A DNA stretch of 64,000 nt from the human T2T-CHM13v2.0 reference genome, Homo sapiens: the NCBI RefSeq assembly GCF_009914755.1, contig NC_060925.1. One strand, given 5' to 3'. The position numbers and the translations under genes were made by a program. Below the pieces are notes generated by a model. That model was given only the letters and a program-made list of their open reading frames with translations, had not been told where the DNA came from and did not search any database. Positions 6,495-51,148 of the stretch are shown piece by piece; the stretch's first letter is position 1; every line of letters starts with the position of its first letter.

Positions 6495-9400
6495 AAATTT
6501 TTACAAGAACTTTTAGCAAATAGAATACCTCAACTCCTTCTGTGAAACCACTGTTATCCCCAATACCAAAGCCATAAAAAGATACCTCATTTAAAGAAAA
6601 AACATTATGACCAATACGTCTCAGTAATACAGATACAAAAAGTCCTTAAAATATTAGCAAAAGATGAATTAGACTAATGTAGAAATACAAAATGTATTAG
6701 CATTCAAAATTCATTCAATGTTAAAAAAATTCATTCAATGTTGTATATAATAGTAAAAGACAAAAGAGCAAAAACCGCATGGTTAGTGCTATAGATGCAT
6801 AAAAAGAATTTGCCAAAATCTAAAAGCCACTGATGATAAAACTTCTCAACAAACTACTATTAAATCGGGTCTTCTTCCACTTGACAAAATGTGTCTACCA
6901 AAACATATATCATGCTAAATGATGAAAGACTTATTTATTTTTCCTTAAAATTGGGACTAATTTAAGGTGCCCACTTTTGGCATTTTGTCAGTATAGAAAG
7001 TTTTACCTGTGATGTTTGAAGATAAGTTCAAGCACTTAAATTGAAACAAGGAAGAAAAACTATTAGGATTTCCAAACATGATACTCCAAGGAGTTTACAA
7101 AAGGAAAAATACCAGAAGGAATAAAATGCTTTAGGAAGGTCACAGGATACTAGATCAATATACATAAGGAAATTGCATTTTATAAACTAAAAACAAAACT
7201 CTGAAAAAGGAAATTAAGAGAAAATTTATCATTTATAATAACAGCAAAGAAAACAATAAAATAATATAAATAATAATGAATATTTAGAAATATACTTAGC
7301 AAAAATGTGCGGAAGATGTACACTAAAAACATTGTGAGGAAATCGAAGATCTGAATAAATGAAAATGTCAATTCTCCCAAACTGATCTAATTCCAACATA
7401 TTTCCCATGAAATACCTAGCCTACTTTCTTTTCTAGAAACTTACTTGATGATACTAAAGTTTATAGGGGTAAGCAAAGAACCTACAACAGACAATACAAT
7501 TTTTTAAAAGAAGAAGAGTGCTAGAGAACTTACATTTCTGTATTGTACAATTTACTATAAACCCATAGCAATCAAGAGTGTGGTATTGATGTCAAGATGT
7601 GATAGAATTGAGTCCAGAAATAAATCTTAACATTTATGGTCAATTGAATTTGACAAAGATACAGGATAATTCAACAGATCGAGAATAAGTCTTTATAACA
7701 AGTAGTTTTTAGACAACTGAATATCTAAAAGCAAATAAATGAAATAGTAGTTTTAATTCAAACCATGCATGAAAATATCTAAAAATCGATCATAGATTGA
7801 TGTATAATAGTTAAAACCATAAAATTTCTAAAAGAAAACATTAAGACTTTTTTTAAATTTAGGGCTAGACAAAGATTTTTTAAATATAATACCAAGTGCA
7901 TTATCTATTTAAAAAAACAGAAAATTGGAGTTTATCAAATTAAAAGTGTTTTCCACTGCAAAAAAGATACCATTAAGAAAATGAAAGGGCAAATTGCAAA
8001 ATAAGAAAAATTAATTGCGAATTATACCAGATAAAGGATTTGTATCCAGAATTTATAAGGAAGAAGAGCAGATAGGTAAAATCTCAAATAAAATTTGAAC
8101 ACAAATTTGCAAAGACATTTCACTAAAGAAGGTATATTAGTGATAAATAGTCATACGACAAGATGTACAACAATATTATTCATATTTGAAATGTGCATTG
8201 AAACCACAATGAAATACTTTACACCTGTTAGAAGGACTATAAGGGGAGAAAAAGCTTTGGCTATCATAGGAAAGCAAAACCAAAAACCTTTTACTGGTGG
8301 AAATGCAAAATGGTAGTCATTTTGAAAACGTTTTACAACTATTTAAAAAGTTAAAAAAAAATATGACCCAGTCATTCTACATCTAGCAATCTTAGAAAAT
8401 AAATTATATATATATTTATATATAGTTTATATTCATAGCATCATTATTTATAAAAGACAAAACATTGAAAGAATAAAATGATTTATGAACTGGTAAATTG
8501 ATAAATACTATACGGCGTGTACTTGCAGAATACTATTCAGAAATAACAGGAATACACTACTGATATATGCTACAACAGGGATGTGCCTCCAAAGCATTAT
8601 GCTAAATGAAACACACCAGACTCAACAGATTGAATATTGTATGATTCCATTCATATAAAATGTCCACAAAAGGCAAATTTGTGAAGACAAGAGTTCAGTG
8701 GTTGCCTAGGGCTCAGTGTGGGAGTAAGTATTAATTCCAGAAGGGTTCAGGGAACAATTTAGGGGTGATGAGAATATTCTAAAACTGCATTTTGGTGATA
8801 GATGCACAAAACTATACATTTACTAAAAATCATATATTAATGTATTTACAATGGGTAAAATGTATGTTATATAAATTATACCTCAATAATGTTGTCAAAA
8901 ACTTAATTTTGCAATGTTGCAATATGATATAGCTGTAGATTTTATTTCATAAAACAAAATAATCCAAATTAGGAAAGTCACCGCTGGTAATAGTCTAAGT
9001 AGTTTTACGAAAAGGGTTTGGTAGTGTGCTTTTTCCATGTTGTTTAAGGTGAATTGAGAGACAGTAGACAAAAGAACTTTCATCCCCAAAATAAAATGTT
9101 AACATCACTGATATATTTTACTCTATAGTCTATATTAATGCTCTTTCATGTGTAAAATTTAATAAAACAAAATTTTCTAAGTCAATAGCAAACTTCAAAT
9201 CCCCATTCTTAAAAGTTTACTTTCATTTAACTTTATTCACTATTTTCAAAATTCCCCAAATGACATTCAACTATAATAAAGTAAACACATATGTTAGCAA
9301 AATAATATTTAAACAATAATGTTGCAAGATAGTTGGAAATTTAATCAACATTCTTAAAATCGGATCAATGAATTGTACTTAAATATACTGTCTGATATTT

Positions 9401-46720: not shown

Positions 46721-48099
46721 TGCGGTATTTTATGTAATAAATATTAACATGTAGAACTCTCTACAAATTATGTAATGATAAAGATAGGCCAACAATTATA
46801 CATTTATGAAAAGGCTGTCTTCATTATTGTAGTAAATACGTTGAACCACTTGGAGTTGAATTGTGTGGGTCCACTTGTACACAGACTTTTTTTCAATAAA
46901 TATATTTAAAAATTTTTAAGGGATTTGTAATAACTTGAAAAAACTTACAAACTACATAGCTTAGAAATATCAAAAAAATTAAATTACATATGTCATAATT
47001 GCATAAAATATATTTGGATACTAACCTATTTTATTATTTATTATTATAAAATTCAAAAAATCCCTTATGAAAATTAAAAATTTATCAAAATGCAAACACA
47101 GAGCATACCTAGCACCATTCACAAGGAAACATAAACAAACATAAAGATGCAGTATTAAATCTTAGCTGCATAAAATTAACTGTAATACATACCGTAATAC
47201 TATAATAATTTTGAAGCCTGTTGTTGTGGTGGTGATCTCAAGTCTTGCAAATATCCACTTAAAATGTCATGTGCCAGTAATCCTTTCTGTGTTAGCGGTT
47301 TGTCTCTCCAGTAAATTGTTTATTACAGCAAAAAGTAATCTCTCATTGTTTTCATCATGTTTAGTGCAATATGTTAAAACCTCAAGTAACACCAGGGGAC
47401 CCATACAAAATGCCATTAGCAATGCTGGAAGTCCTCCCAAAAAGCAGAGCAATGCCATCACAGTACAATAAAAAATTGAATTGCTTGACATGTACTATAG
47501 ATTAAGGTCTGCACCTGCAGTTACCCACCATTATAAGATAAATGAATCCAATGTAAGAACCACTATGAAAAAAAGAAATGGGAAATTCATGAGGTTCTCA
47601 CTGCAGCTATGCCAGCAGACATAAAAGCCTTGCACTTTTGTCAAAATACTCTCTTATCTCATATTGAAAATACAGTTTTTACATGGCTGAAGGGTTAGTA
47701 TGAGAAAGGAATACCTGAATACTCTAACTGGATTCAAGAAGTGAAGTTATTTTATGGCAGCCTAAAGCAAAAAGAAGCTGAGGCCTCTAAAGCTGTATAT
47801 TTTAATGCCAGCTAAGGATAGTTTGATGATTTTAGAAATAGATTTGGCTTAAAAATGGCAAGATAACAGGAGAAGCACCTTTTATTAACTTAGCATCCCA
47901 GATGTCATTAAGGAAATCATTGAGGAGAAAGAATGTCTGCCTGAACAGGTTTTTTGTTGTTTTTGTTTTTTGTTTTTTGTTTTGCATTTTGTAAGATTTA
48001 TTAAATTTACAATAAAAAATATTGGATGTATTATTACTCATAAATTAGGTGCTACATATTCTTTTATCAGTAATATTTTCTAGCATACCTCTATATAAA

Positions 48100-48168
48100 A
48101 CCCTGGAAACTGCATTTCAAATTAACATCTCAGATACTCTCATGCATACTAAATTTGGAGAACCACTG
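48100..48168. mobile_element. MER5A/B fragment (within the transduced segment)
   Basis: ctgcatttcaaattaacatctcagatactctcatgcatactaaatttggagaaccactg resembles the MER5 terminus. Confidence 0.65.
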
Positions 48169-48289
48169 TTTGAGTCAATGAATGAAAAGATCAGGATCAC
48201 TTAATTTGGTCTCCAAAGGTTCTTCCTGATTTTTACTGAAAGCAAGATAGAGAACAATTTCTTTCAAATGCAGAGGCCTGTTTTTAAAT

Positions 48290-48785
48290 TTAAAAATTAA
48301 TTTTAAAATAGTTGCAGAGAGGTATAATTAACATACAAAAAATTGGCACACTTTGGGGTATGCAATTTACTAAGCTTCGACATATGTATACCCCATTGAA
48401 ACCATCACCACAATCAAGATTGTGAACATATCCATCCCCCCTAAAAGTTTTCCAGTACCCCTTGGTAATTCTTTCCTTCTACCCCTTCTCACATACCCCA
48501 TACCCAGTAACCACTGATCTCCTTTCTGTCACTCTGTTAGTTTGCAGTTTTTTAGAATTCTTTATAAATGAAATCATACAATATGTGGCTTTTTTGATAT
48601 GTTTCTTTTTCTCAGCGTAATGATTTTGTGACTCATCCATGTTGCTGAGTGTCTGTGTGGTTCATTCCATTTTTTGATTGAGTAGTATCCCATTTTATGA
48701 ATATGACACAATTTCTTTCTTTATTTACCTGCTGAGGACATTTGTGTTGTTTACTGTTTTTGCCTATTACAAATAATACTACTCA
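48290..48785 (-). mobile_element. L1ME 3' end (within the transduced segment; upstream piece at 48951-49056, + strand)
   Basis: aaccatcaccacaatcaagat...aaccactgatctcctttctgtcact...gagtagtatcccatt. Confidence 0.75.
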
Positions 48786-48840
48786 TGATGCAGGGCAGGC
48801 AAATCCCAACTCTGGGGCTTAGCCCGGGAAGGTTCTTGAT

Positions 48841-48950
48841 TTGATGAGTTAATGGGTGCAGCACACCAACATGGCACATGTATACATATGTAACAAACCT
48901 GCACGTTGTGCACATGTACCCTAGAACTTAAAGTATAATAAAAAAAAAAG
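48841..48950 (+). mobile_element. L1PA4/5-like terminal ~110 bp with the source element's poly(A)
   Basis: tgatgagttaatgggtgcagcacaccaacatggcacatgtatac...cttaaagtataataaaaaaaaaaa. Confidence 0.92.
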
Positions 48951-49056
48951 TTAAACTCATATCGACCACATGATTCAGCCATTCTACTCCCAGGTATTTA
49001 CCAAAGAGAAAGGGAAATACATTTCAATATAAAAATTTAAACACAAATGTTCATCG

Positions 49057-49513
49057 TGAGGTAAGAGGAAGGACTTGACTCAGGAGTTGGGACTTGACTA
49101 CAGAGATAGGGCTTGGACACTGGACTGAGTTGAGGACTAGCTAAAACACGGAATGAGGCAGAAACAGCTTTCCATTAGACACACCCACCAGTGTGTTATG
49201 TCAGTTTACCATTGTCATGGCAATGCCCAGAAGTTACCACCCCCTTCCATGGCAACAATCCAATGGCACAGAAGTTACCACCCATTTTCTAAAAATTGCT
49301 GCATAATCCGTCCTTCAACTTGCATGTCATTAAAAGTGGGTATAAATGTGCGTGCAGACCTGCCTCTGGGTTGCTACTCTGGTCACACTGCCTGTGGAGT
49401 ATCTCTGCTCCACAAGGAGCTGTACTTTTGCCGCTGCCGTACACTGCCATTTCAATACAAGTTGCTGTTTAACACCACTGCCTTGCCCACTCTTGAATTC
49501 TTTCCTGGGTGAA
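49057..49513 (+). mobile_element. MER41-family ERV1 LTR (MER41E/C-like); its last ~55 bp lie inverted at 48786-48840
   Basis: tgaggtaagaggaaggacttgactc start; ccatggcaac and gaagttacc repeats; ttgaattctttcctgggtgaa. The reverse complement of 48786-48840 is aatcaagaaccttcccgggctaagcccc...ccctgcatca. Confidence 0.85.
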
Positions 49514-49875
49514 CAGGTTTTAAATGTAGATGAAAGTGTCCTATTCTGAGGGGGGAAAGTCAAAATGACATTTATTAGAAAAAAAAAAAAAAGAAGTGAG
49601 CACTAGGATTTAAGGCAGAAAGGCTAAATCTACAGTTCTGTACAAATACAAATGGCCTTGCACTTTATGGATAAGGACTGCCCTTACCTGTAAAGCTGTT
49701 TATCCCTGAGCCTTGAAGAAAAAGATAAACACCAGCTTTCAGTCTTTTGTTTGTACAATAAGAAGGCCTGGAAAATGAAAACCCATTTTCTGGATTGGTT
49801 AAACTGATGCTTTGCTCCTGAAATCAGAAAGATTTCTCTTACCTTATCAGTAAGAGGCTACCTTTAAACTGTTGT

Positions 49876-50199
49876 TTGATTTTGAACAAAGTCCCTGGCC
49901 ACCAAGATCCTCATGAGTTCAACCCCAAACATGTTGAAGTGGTCTATTGTACTTGCCCCCCACACACCATGTGTCTGATTCAGTTTCTAGATCAGGGGGT
50001 TATAAAGACCTTTAGGTCTCATTACACAAATTACACTATGGAAAGGATTGTCAATGTTATGGTAGAGAACCCCTATAGAGAGACCATTTTGAAAGTCTGG
50101 AATAATTACACCATTGAAGATGTCATCATTATTATAGAACAAGCTCTGAAAGATATTAAGCCCAAAGCAATAAATTCCTGCGGAGAAAACAGTGTCTAA
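49876..50199 (+). pseudogene. Tigger2 pogo-type DDE transposase fragment (non-functional)
   Basis: ILNKVPGH...VEVVY..PPHT.CLIQFLDQGVIKTF resembles the DDE_1 motif LDNAPGH...LPPNTTSLIQPLDQGVI; stops and frameshifts on both sides. Confidence 0.85.
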
Positions 50200-50280
50200 A
50201 TGTTGTACGTCACTTTACAGGATTTACAACAAAGCCAGTCAAGGAAATCGTGGAAGATTATGGATTTCTCAAAAACAATG

Positions 50281-51011
50281 TGAAATAGGACAGTTCCCTG
50301 ATCTCCCTCACAGGACATATAACAGGGGTGTGGCTAGCCTGTTAGGTTACTGCTGCTGCTCAAACCCCTGAGAGGAGAGGGAGCACACAGACAGACAGGT
50401 GCAGGAGCCCAAGCGGGTATGTGTTACAGTGTGCCCTTTTAGCCCTGCCATCCGCAGACAGCTTAAGTGTTAACCAGCTCAATGAACCCTCTGCCTTTTC
50501 ACAAGGGCAGAGGCCCAGTGTGACAGCTTTCTGTATCCAAGCTCTTGCCTAGTGTCCCAGAAGAATTGGGTCACACAGGGGCTTGACAAATTCAGGGATT
50601 TATTAAATGGTAGAATTGGCTCTCAGCAGGATGGATGGGGAGCCGGAAGAGGGGGATGGAGTGGGAAGGTGATCTTCACCTGGAGTTTGGTGGTCCAGCG
50701 ATCAAAGTCCTTTCTAACCACCTCTCTTAGAATTCAGACATTCCTCCTCTTCTCTCTTTCTCTGCCACCTTGTTTCACCCTTTGTCTGCTTGTCTCATCT
50801 CCCTGTCTGCTCATCTGCTTTCGGAGCCTGGGGTTCGGAGTTTGCATGGGTACAGGATAGGGGGCGTGGTAGGCCCGAAGACTGCTTCTGGGGCATGAAA
50901 CCAGGAATGACTGTCCCCATTTAGGGTCTCGGGTATCCAGGCTTGAGGGTGCGGCCTTTGCCATGGAACCATCCTCTTCTACCTGGTACTCCCATTCTCC
51001 TATCCATATCA
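50281..51011 (-). mobile_element. LTR1-family ERV1 solo LTR inserted in Tigger2
   Basis: tccaggcttgagggtgcggcctttgcc...ctcttctacc...atca end; 4-bp TSD AATG at 50277-50280 and 51012-51015. Confidence 0.85.
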
Positions 51012-51148
51012 AATGGGCAGTGAAGGGTTTCAAAATATACATTTTGAAGAAATTCAAGAGCTATTATAAGAGACACTACACTAGAGGAATTAATAGAAAA
51101 TGACTTGATGTAGATGCCTGCTTTTGAACATGTGCTGGACAGTGATGC

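What the first reader, a model, noticed from the sequence alone, without database searches (positions are those of the whole stretch)
47942..49521. L1PA 3' transduction with twin-priming inversion inserted into a Tigger2 transposase gene
Seen in the sequence: Tigger2 stops at ...cctgaacaggtttt and resumes at tgaacaggttttaaatgtagatgaa, giving a 12-bp TSD whose right copy ends in the L1 endonuclease consensus TTTT/AA. Inside, read on the minus strand, are AATAAA (47997-48002) and a decayed poly(A) (47950-47985). The 5' part is inverted. Segment 48841-49513 (+) holds the last ~110 bp of an L1PA with its own poly(A), then L1ME, then a MER41 LTR ending ctgggtgaa. The missing MER41 end continues seamlessly on the opposite strand at 48840-48786, followed by the rest of the same L1ME, unique DNA and MER5. 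TGAA is shared by the TSD and the MER41 breakpoint. Established knowledge: L1 read-through causes 3' transduction, and twin priming gives exactly this inverted geometry. Inference: ~1.4 kb of another locus, including a MER41 LTR, was copied here. This also explains why ancient L1ME/MER5 sit inside a younger Tigger2.
Basis: partly seen in the sequence, partly recalled or inferred. Interest (0 to 1): 0.8.

Follow-up and report, generated by a model that had tools for sequence, protein, structure and literature searches.

The report
Inverted LINE-1-carried copy of chromosome 8 DNA
About 1.5 kb of DNA from another chromosome was copied here through RNA by the LINE-1 machinery some tens of millions of years ago, with its front part flipped, which is a clean but ordinary example of two well-known LINE-1 side effects.

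Summary
Window 47954-49509 is one LINE-1-mediated insertion on the minus strand inside a decayed pogo/Tigger-type transposon. It has a 12-bp target duplication, a TTTT/AA nick site and an untemplated A-rich tail 13 nt after an AATAAA.

Contig C8 (about 20.034-20.036 Mb) carries the same 1,413 nt in one colinear piece with an intact LTR. Identity is 92.6% and equal in both halves.

The geometry is textbook twin priming. The base next to the 5' target duplication and the first base of the uninverted part lie 2 nt apart in the source. The source has TGAA where the target end reads TGAA.

One prediction failed. The 99-nt L1PA-type 3' end and its A10 have no counterpart at C8. There an Alu with an A23 tail ends at that same position, and 21 kb around it holds no L1PA-type DNA.

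Best reading (about 0.7): 3' transduction from an L1PA allele at C8 that was later lost. Rivals: template switching at the Alu A-tail, or a passively transcribed L1 fragment.

The mechanisms are known, no gene is nearby and no function is indicated, so interest is low.

The parts
46841..47953 (+). Left part of the host element, a decayed pogo/Tigger-type DNA transposon (family name not testable here).
   Evidence: Matches 11 paralogous genomic copies at 68-77% identity. The reading frames are broken.
47942..47953 (.). Left copy of the 12-bp target-site duplication TGAACAGGTTTT. This is the 3' copy in insert orientation.
   Evidence: There are only two occurrences in the window. The motif is single in 8 of 8 displayed paralogues.
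47954..47983 (-). Untemplated A-rich tail, 30 nt of A4-6 runs separated by single C.
   Evidence: The source locus reads GCTTTTGTTGG at this point, with no A run.
47984..48838 (-). Uninverted 3' part of the retrocopy. It holds the last 50 nt of the LTR (48838-48789), then an old L1 (L1M-type) 3' region (about 48788-48281), then low-copy flank with AATAAA at 48002-47997.
   Evidence: Equals L004 9028-9878 (C8), 91.6% over 857 columns; 64/849 differences. L1 ORF2 C-terminal similarity at 48705-48589, 41% identity, E=2e-5. Window 48788-48838 matches LTR query positions 463-513.
48839..48840 (.). Two nucleotides at the inversion junction of unclear origin. The source has GC here.
   Evidence: Junction comparison. 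L1 copies match only from 48841.
48841..48939 (+). 5'-truncated L1PA-type 3' UTR end (99 nt), lying in the inverted part.
   Evidence: 18 other loci match at 88-97% identity, all from this start. In one of them (L026) the upstream frame matches human L1 ORF2p residues 1047-1207 at E=1e-101. No counterpart at the C8 source.
48940..48949 (+). Internal A10, the poly(A) of the L1PA-type piece.
   Evidence: Sequence. At C8 the same position holds the A23 tail of an Alu.
48950..49513 (+). Inverted 5' part of the retrocopy: L1M-type piece (48950-49054), then LTR bases 1-459 (49055-49513). The last four bases (TGAA) are shared with the target duplication.
   Evidence: Equals L004 8462-9025, 41/564 differences and no gaps. 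LTR match at 49056-49513.
49510..49521 (.). Right copy of the target-site duplication (5' copy in insert orientation), followed by AA, giving TTTT/AA on the + strand.
49522..50278 (+). Continuation of the host transposon, including its DDE_1 transposase remnant at 49822-50199.
   Evidence: Pfam DDE_1, E=1.6e-11, 44.5 bits against a cut-off of 22. Paralogue matches run 49510-50278.

Best explanation
Shown: an RNA transcribed from contig C8 (about 20,034,462-20,035,878, + strand) and polyadenylated 13 nt after a genomic AATAAA was reverse-transcribed into this site by the LINE-1 machinery. The + strand was nicked at CAGGTTTT/AA, and the T run primed on the poly(A) tail. The other strand was cut 12 nt away. 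Its 3' end (...TTCA) paired with UGAA inside the LTR part of the same RNA and primed a second cDNA towards the RNA's 5' end (twin priming). Joining the two cDNAs left the 5' 673 nt inverted, lost 2 nt at the breakpoint and duplicated 12 bp of target. Inferred: the RNA was a read-through transcript of an L1PA element that sat directly upstream at C8. It lay in or at the A-rich EN site TTCTT/AAAAAG, where an Alu tail lies today, and skipped its own weak poly(A) signal (3' transduction). That donor allele was later lost, by drift or by precise deletion between flanking A runs. Only 99 nt of it survive here, because the second cDNA stopped there. From 7.9% divergence the event is roughly 20-40 million years old; the mutation rate behind this range is recalled, not computed here. 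No function is indicated.
For: Target duplication, EN motif and single-copy 'empty site' in 8 of 11 paralogues, with 3 uninformative. One colinear source at C8: window 48937-49513(+) = L004 8449-9025, and window 48838-47984(-) = L004 9028-9878. Four probes found only the window and C8 at 90% identity or more. The tail is absent at the source, which has AATAAA followed by a U/GU-rich stretch. TGAA is present in the source exactly at the priming point, and 2 nt are lost at the breakpoint. The two halves diverge equally, 7.3% and 7.5%, so this was one event. The L1 identity of 48841-48939 is supported. The anatomy matches the published description: two A stretches, a source 3' flank that begins at an EN site, and small indels at inversion breakpoints (passages of PMC4859970). 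5' inversion occurs in 639 of 2068 L1 insertions but only 4 of 477 SVA insertions, and about 70% of inverted L1s have 2-5 bp microhomology (passages of PMC2912911). A donor absent from the reference has precedent (the reference list and a table in PMC4859970 cite an orphan transduction from a non-reference L1). The C8 site is a perfect EN site, and strict pattern matching finds Alu tails at the same L1M site at 8 other loci, with 0 in the control.
Against: No L1PA-type DNA lies at the source or within C8:20,016,001-20,037,376. The L1PA-tail/L1M junction exists only in the window. No sibling copies were found. An Alu A23 tail ends at exactly the base where the L1PA poly(A) ends in the copy. This is a coincidence unless the L1PA landed in that tail or at that hotspot. 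The Alu looks older than the event: 19/235 = 8.1% non-CpG divergence from an ad hoc consensus, against about 3.2% per lineage for the event. This estimate is rough, and it also fits the template-switch rival. With only 99 nt of L1 kept, an L1 promoter origin of the RNA cannot be shown.
Confidence: 0.7

Rival explanations
1. Chimeric retrocopy by template switching. A non-L1 transcript of the C8 locus that included the Alu was mobilised in trans. The twin-primed second cDNA reached the Alu A-tail, and its T run re-paired with the poly(A) tail of an L1 RNA. Reverse transcription then continued for 99 nt into the L1 3' UTR. On this reading no L1PA ever sat at C8.
For: This explains directly why the L1PA poly(A) sits exactly where the Alu A23 tail sits at C8, and why no L1PA is at or near the source. 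The Alu appears older than the event. L1 chimeras formed by template switching are catalogued, more than 700 events including 452 Alu/L1 chimeras (passages of PMC13174262).
Against: It needs trans mobilisation of an intergenic-looking RNA plus an internal switch. In the catalogued chimeras the L1 is the 3' partner, whereas here it is the 5' partner. 5' inversion is frequent for L1 RNA itself and rare for the trans-mobilised SVA and Alu RNAs. No feature of the sequence requires two RNAs.
Confidence: 0.12
2. The C8 donor allele did carry the L1PA piece, but only as a short dead fragment. The RNA came from an upstream non-L1 promoter and was retrotransposed in trans, like a processed pseudogene. 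This would be a retrocopy of a host transcript, not a true 3' transduction.
For: Only 99 nt of L1 are retained, so nothing shows a full-length donor. Most L1 insertions are 5' truncated (52.9%).
Against: L1 proteins prefer their own RNA (established knowledge, recalled). The high rate of 5' inversion is a trait of L1 RNA itself. This reading still needs the lost allele and also adds an unknown promoter. No splicing is seen, since the copy is colinear with genomic DNA over 1,413 nt.
Confidence: 0.12
3. A colinear retrocopy inserted first, and its 5' 673 bp were inverted later by an unrelated DNA rearrangement. A related variant is that the L1PA piece was a separate later insertion.
For: The final arrangement alone is formally compatible with a later in-place inversion.
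Against: One inversion breakpoint would have to fall exactly on the insert/target-duplication boundary and at a TGAA shared with the target. The L1PA piece has no flanking duplication of its own...GGTTCTTGAT on one side against GTTAAACTC on the other. Both halves have the same divergence.
Confidence: 0.03

Closest known systems
LINE-1 3' transduction (read-through of the weak L1 poly(A) signal; review PMC4859970, passages read; the original papers are recalled, not read)
   Same: An L1 3' end with its own A run, followed by non-L1 flank from another locus, a second tail after a downstream AATAAA, and one pair of target duplications at an EN site. The flank begins at an EN-type site of the source.
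   Different: The source locus in this assembly has no L1. An Alu tail occupies the exact position instead. Only 99 nt of L1 are kept, and that piece lies in the inverted part.
Twin priming 5' inversion of L1 insertions (Ostertag and Kazazian 2001, cited in PMC2912911 and PMC4859970; the paper itself is not held)
   Same: The 5' segment is inverted inside a single target duplication. The two segments are adjacent in the template, with a 2-nt loss. There is 4-nt microhomology at the 5' junction and a 12-bp duplication, all in the typical ranges reported.
   Different: The internal priming site lies in transduced non-L1 sequence (an LTR), not in the L1 body, so an LTR is split into two opposed pieces.
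Orphan or non-reference-donor transductions (Solyom et al. 2012, seen only as a reference and table entry in PMC4859970)
   Same: The donor element is not present in the reference assembly, and the copy is traced to its source only through the flank.
   Different: Those cases are recent and their donors are still polymorphic. Here the event is tens of millions of years old, the donor is presumably extinct, and a short L1 piece is retained.
L1 chimeric insertions by template switching or RNA ligation (PMC13174262, passages read)
   Same: Two kinds of sequence (L1 and non-L1) lie inside one target duplication, joined at an A run.
   Different: In the catalogued chimeras the L1 is the 3' partner that primes at the target. 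Here the non-L1 RNA carries the priming tail and the L1 piece is upstream.

Membership tests
Endonuclease-dependent LINE-1 (TPRT) insertion | Target-site duplication of about 7-20 bp flanking the whole insert | tested here: met
   A 12-bp exact repeat occurs only twice in the window. The flanks overlap by exactly 12 nt in 8 of 11 paralogues, and 3 were uninformative.
Endonuclease-dependent LINE-1 (TPRT) insertion | Nick at a TTTT/AA-like site, and an untemplated poly(A) tail abutting the duplication | tested here: met
   The + strand reads CAGGTTTT/AAATG. The 30-nt A-rich tail is absent from the source, which has AATAAA 13 nt upstream of the tail start.
L1 3' transduction | L1 3' end with its own A run, then foreign flank, then a second tail, all within one duplication | tested here: met
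   48841-48939 is L1-type. It is followed by A10, then 1,413 nt of C8 sequence, then the tail.
L1 3' transduction | The flank maps immediately downstream of an L1 at the source locus | tested here: not met
   The flank maps uniquely to C8, but an Alu with an A23 tail lies upstream, not an L1. No L1PA-type DNA lies in 21.4 kb, and the junction is unique to the window. Donors can be non-reference, so this lowers membership without excluding it.
L1 3' transduction | The transduced part begins with the donor's 3' target duplication at an EN site | tested here: inconclusive
   It begins at TTCTT/AAAAAGTTAAAC, a perfect EN site that Alus have also used in other L1M copies. The donor's 5' duplication cannot be seen.
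Twin priming inversion | The inverted 5' and direct 3' segments are adjacent in the template, with a small indel | tested here: met
   L004 9025 and 9028 are the two inner template ends, and GC is lost between them.
Twin priming inversion | Microhomology between the cut target end and the internal priming site | tested here: met
   TGAA ends the target duplication and is present in the source at L004 9022-9025. The typical range is 2-5 bp.
Tigger2 (pogo/Tigger DNA transposon) | DDE_1-type transposase remnant and a multi-copy family | tested here: met
   DDE_1, E=1.6e-11. At least 374 candidate copies, with 39 scored at 73-79% identity.
Tigger2 (pogo/Tigger DNA transposon) | Match to the Tigger2 consensus rather than to another Tigger family | not testable with these tools
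MER41 LTR (ERV1 solo LTR) | LTR ends TG...CA with a short target duplication, in a multi-copy family | tested here: met
   At C8 the LTR spans L004 8567-9077, runs TG...CA and is flanked by TCAT/TCAT. At least 1,453 candidates, with copies at 77-80% identity. The name MER41 itself is not testable.
MER5 | Multi-copy MITE matching window about 48090-48169 | tested here: inconclusive
   Two probes found only the window, C8 and one weak 73% match over 93 nt. Very old copies may be below the sensitivity of the search.

The most novel reading that the evidence does not exclude
The L1PA piece never lay on chromosome 8. Instead, during the twin-primed second cDNA synthesis on a cellular chr8 transcript, the reverse transcriptase switched at the Alu A-tail onto the poly(A) tail of an L1 RNA. 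That would make a three-part product: cellular RNA as the 3' partner, L1 as the 5' partner, and an inversion. This is the reverse polarity of the catalogued L1 chimeras, and it would mimic a 3' transduction.
Probability: 0.12. Interest if true: 0.4.

Novelty: new member of a known kind. Interest (0 to 1): 0.22.

Why it matters
It is a well-resolved fossil of two textbook LINE-1 side effects acting in one event, with the source locus identified and every junction explained to the base. It shows how old repeats can end up nested inside another repeat and how an LTR can be copied and split without any retroviral activity. That is useful as a caution for repeat-nesting chronologies and as a teaching case. 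The missing donor, with an Alu tail exactly at its place, is a small puzzle about lost source alleles versus template switching. No gene is annotated in the window or within 100 kb upstream of it, no regulatory feature overlaps the insert, and nothing suggests a function.

Tried and rejected
- Pfam on short decayed frames of the host's left part, the L1M piece and an L1PA-type copy gave nothing except DDE_1 and one sub-threshold DUF4417 match. One search failed on a stop codon and was resent without that item.
- A PDB sequence search with a 48-aa L1M-type frame found nothing.
- tblastn of L1 ORF2 C-terminal frames found the window's L1M piece but nothing at C8 at E<=0.01.
- The MER5 identity could not be confirmed.
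- Searches for a third locus or sibling copies with four probes, and for a second L1PA-tail/L1M junction, found none.
- A search for L1PA-type DNA in 21.4 kb around the source found none.
- The order of Alu insertion and the event was tested in two ways. The three copies of the Alu duplication region give one ambiguous CpG site. Alu divergence from an ad hoc mixed-subfamily consensus suggests the Alu is older, but this is rough.
- Rejected readings: DNA-level segmental duplication, because of the tail, the AATAAA and the target duplication; a later independent L1PA insertion, because it has no duplication of its own; and a later inversion, because the breakpoint coincides with the insert boundary.
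- No primate outgroup genomes were available, so presence or absence could not be tested.
Full report
**Observation.** The 12-mer TGAACAGGTTTT occurs only at 47942-47953 and 49510-49521 in the window. The right copy is followed by AA, so the + strand reads TTTT/AA, the LINE-1 endonuclease consensus. Read on the minus strand, the insert ends with AATAAA (48002-47997), 13 nt of sequence, and a 30-nt A-rich tail (47983-47954) that abuts the left repeat copy.

**The host element.**
- The flanks belong to a multi-copy element: at least 374 candidate copies, 39 scored at 73-79% identity.
- Its right part carries a Pfam DDE_1 remnant at 49822-50199 (E=1.6e-11).
- Its frames are broken, so it is a pogo/Tigger-type fossil, not a gene.
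- The element runs about 46841-47953, 49510-50278 and 51014-51145.
- In 8 of 11 paralogous copies the left and right flank alignments overlap by exactly 12 nt, and the site reads once as CTGCCTGAACAGGTTTTTAATG. Three copies were uninformative: one alignment started late, one stopped short, and one had no right-flank match.
- This stands in for an empty site and shows that the 12-mer is a true target duplication.

**The source locus.** The window's own genome could be searched.
- Window 47986-48320 has a single 94% paralogue, on contig C8 at 20,035,541-20,035,876 in the opposite orientation.
- BLAST against C8:20,026,001-20,036,000 (L004) gives two blocks. Window 48937-49513 (+) equals L004 8449-9025 (92.7%, 577 columns, no gaps). 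Window 48838-47984 (-) equals L004 9028-9878 (91.6%, 857 columns).
- At C8 the two blocks are therefore colinear and 2 nt apart, while in the window they are inverted relative to each other.
- Three further probes found only the window and C8 at 90% or more: 48937-49110, the whole LTR, and 48050-48275. There is no third locus or sibling copy.
- Divergence is 41/564 (7.3%) in the inverted part and 64/849 (7.5%) in the direct part. Pooled, it is 105/1413 (7.4%; K2P 0.079; non-CpG 88/1379 = 6.4%), with five small gaps. The equal values point to one event.
- With mutation rates recalled from the literature (not from a call), this corresponds to very roughly 20-40 million years.

**Junctions.**
1. 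Tail: C8 reads AATAAATCTTACAAAATGC followed by TTTTGTTGGCTTTTGC. The window copy has the A-rich tail after ...AAAATGC. The tail is therefore untemplated and was added at a normal distance after a poly(A) signal.
2. 5' junction: C8 reads CTGGGTGAAGCCAAGAAC. The inverted block ends ...CTGGGTGAA, and its TGAA is also the first four bases of the right target-duplication copy. The cut target end (...TTCA-3' on the insert strand) could therefore pair with UGAA in the RNA and prime.
3. Inversion junction: the direct block starts at CAAGAAC, so GC is lost and two bases (48839-48840) are of unclear origin.

In twin priming, the base next to the 5' duplication and the first base of the direct part are expected to be neighbours in the RNA, with a small indel and a few bases of microhomology. 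Published counts fit this. Of 2068 human- and chimpanzee-specific L1 insertions, 639 are 5'-inverted. About 70% of the inverted ones have 2-5 bp microhomology at the 5' junction. Only 4 of 477 SVA insertions are inverted (passages of PMC2912911). Small indels are typical at inversion breakpoints (passages of PMC4859970).

**Contents of the insert.**
- Window 48841-48939 plus A10 matches 18 other loci at 88-97%, every match starting at 48841.
- In one of these loci (L026), the frame about 320 nt upstream matches human LINE-1 ORF2p residues 1047-1207 at E=1e-101. The piece is therefore the extreme 3' end of a primate L1.
- The surrounding old repeat shows L1 ORF2 C-terminal similarity (41% over 39 aa, E=2e-5). 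It has many 74-85% paralogues.
- At C8 the LTR is intact (L004 8567-9077, TG...CA, flanked by TCAT/TCAT) and belongs to a family with at least 1,453 candidates.
- In the window the LTR is split into 49055-49513 (+) and 48838-48789 (-).
- The names L1ME, MER41, MER5 and Tigger2 could not be tested, and MER5 was not confirmed.

**The failed prediction.**
- The L1PA-type piece has no counterpart at C8. Upstream of GTTAAACACATATC there is an Alu with an A23 tail (L004 about 8155-8461). The Alu is flanked by the duplication AAAAAGTTAAACAC[G/A]TATCAGCC, at the perfect endonuclease site TTCTT/AAAAAG inside the old L1.
- Neither the 99-nt piece nor a 1.6-kb L1PA-type probe matches anywhere in C8:20,016,001-20,037,376.
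- The pattern 'L1 3' end, A run, GTTAAAC...' exists only in the window (1 match, control 0).

**Weighing the explanations.**
- The same old-L1 site carries an Alu tail at 8 other loci under a strict exact pattern (9 matches including C8, control 0; one of the 8 does not look L1M-like). Position-specific hotspots and A-stretch targeting are documented (passages of PMC2836564). Re-use of this nick, or landing in the Alu tail, is therefore plausible.
- The Alu's non-CpG divergence from an ad hoc consensus of 26 Alus is 19/235 = 8.1%, against about 3.2% per lineage for the event. This suggests the Alu was already there, but the consensus mixes subfamilies and the estimate is rough.
- Most likely (about 0.7): an L1PA inserted at this site, read through its own signal and gave rise to this copy, and that allele was then lost. 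A donor absent from the reference has precedent.
- Template switching at the Alu A-tail onto an L1 RNA tail explains the coincidence equally well. It needs trans mobilisation, and its polarity is opposite to the catalogued L1 chimeras (passages of PMC13174262). I give it about 0.12.
- A dead L1 fragment carried passively in a host transcript also gets about 0.12.
- A later inversion or a separate later L1PA insertion gets about 0.03. The breakpoint falls exactly on the insert boundary, and the L1 piece has no duplication of its own.

**Verdict.** Both mechanisms are long known, no gene or function is involved, and the case is ordinary though unusually clean. Outgroup primate genomes, a repeat library and annotation of the C8 locus were not available and would settle the open points.

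Noticed in passing
window 50281-51011: A second insertion in the same host transposon: a 731-bp solo-LTR-like repeat with TG...CA ends and a 4-bp duplication AATG. It has at least 2,107 candidate copies in the genome at 73-79% identity. In the paralogous copies the host sequence is continuous across this point.
   Followed up: partly
L004 8130-8480 (C8:20,034,130-20,034,480) and 8 other loci listed: The old-L1 site TTCTT/AAAAAGTTAAAC is a recurrent target. A strict exact pattern finds Alu-type tails abutting GTTAAAC in L1M context at 9 loci, with 0 in the reversed control.
   Followed up: partly
L029 and L030 (C12:130,213,922-130,214,030 and C23:77,739,335-77,739,440): Two of the nine displayed L1PA-type 3' ends start at the same base (TTGATGAG...) as the truncated piece in the window, and their upstream sequence is unrelated to L1. 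This may be chance, search bias or a favoured stop point.
   Followed up: no
window 47954-47983: The terminal tail is not pure A. It is a patterned A4-6/C repeat, as often seen in old tails that have become microsatellite-like.
   Followed up: no
L020 about 1455-1500: Another copy of the old L1 has an antisense Alu whose end lies about 10 nt upstream of the same TTCTTAAAAAG site.
   Followed up: no
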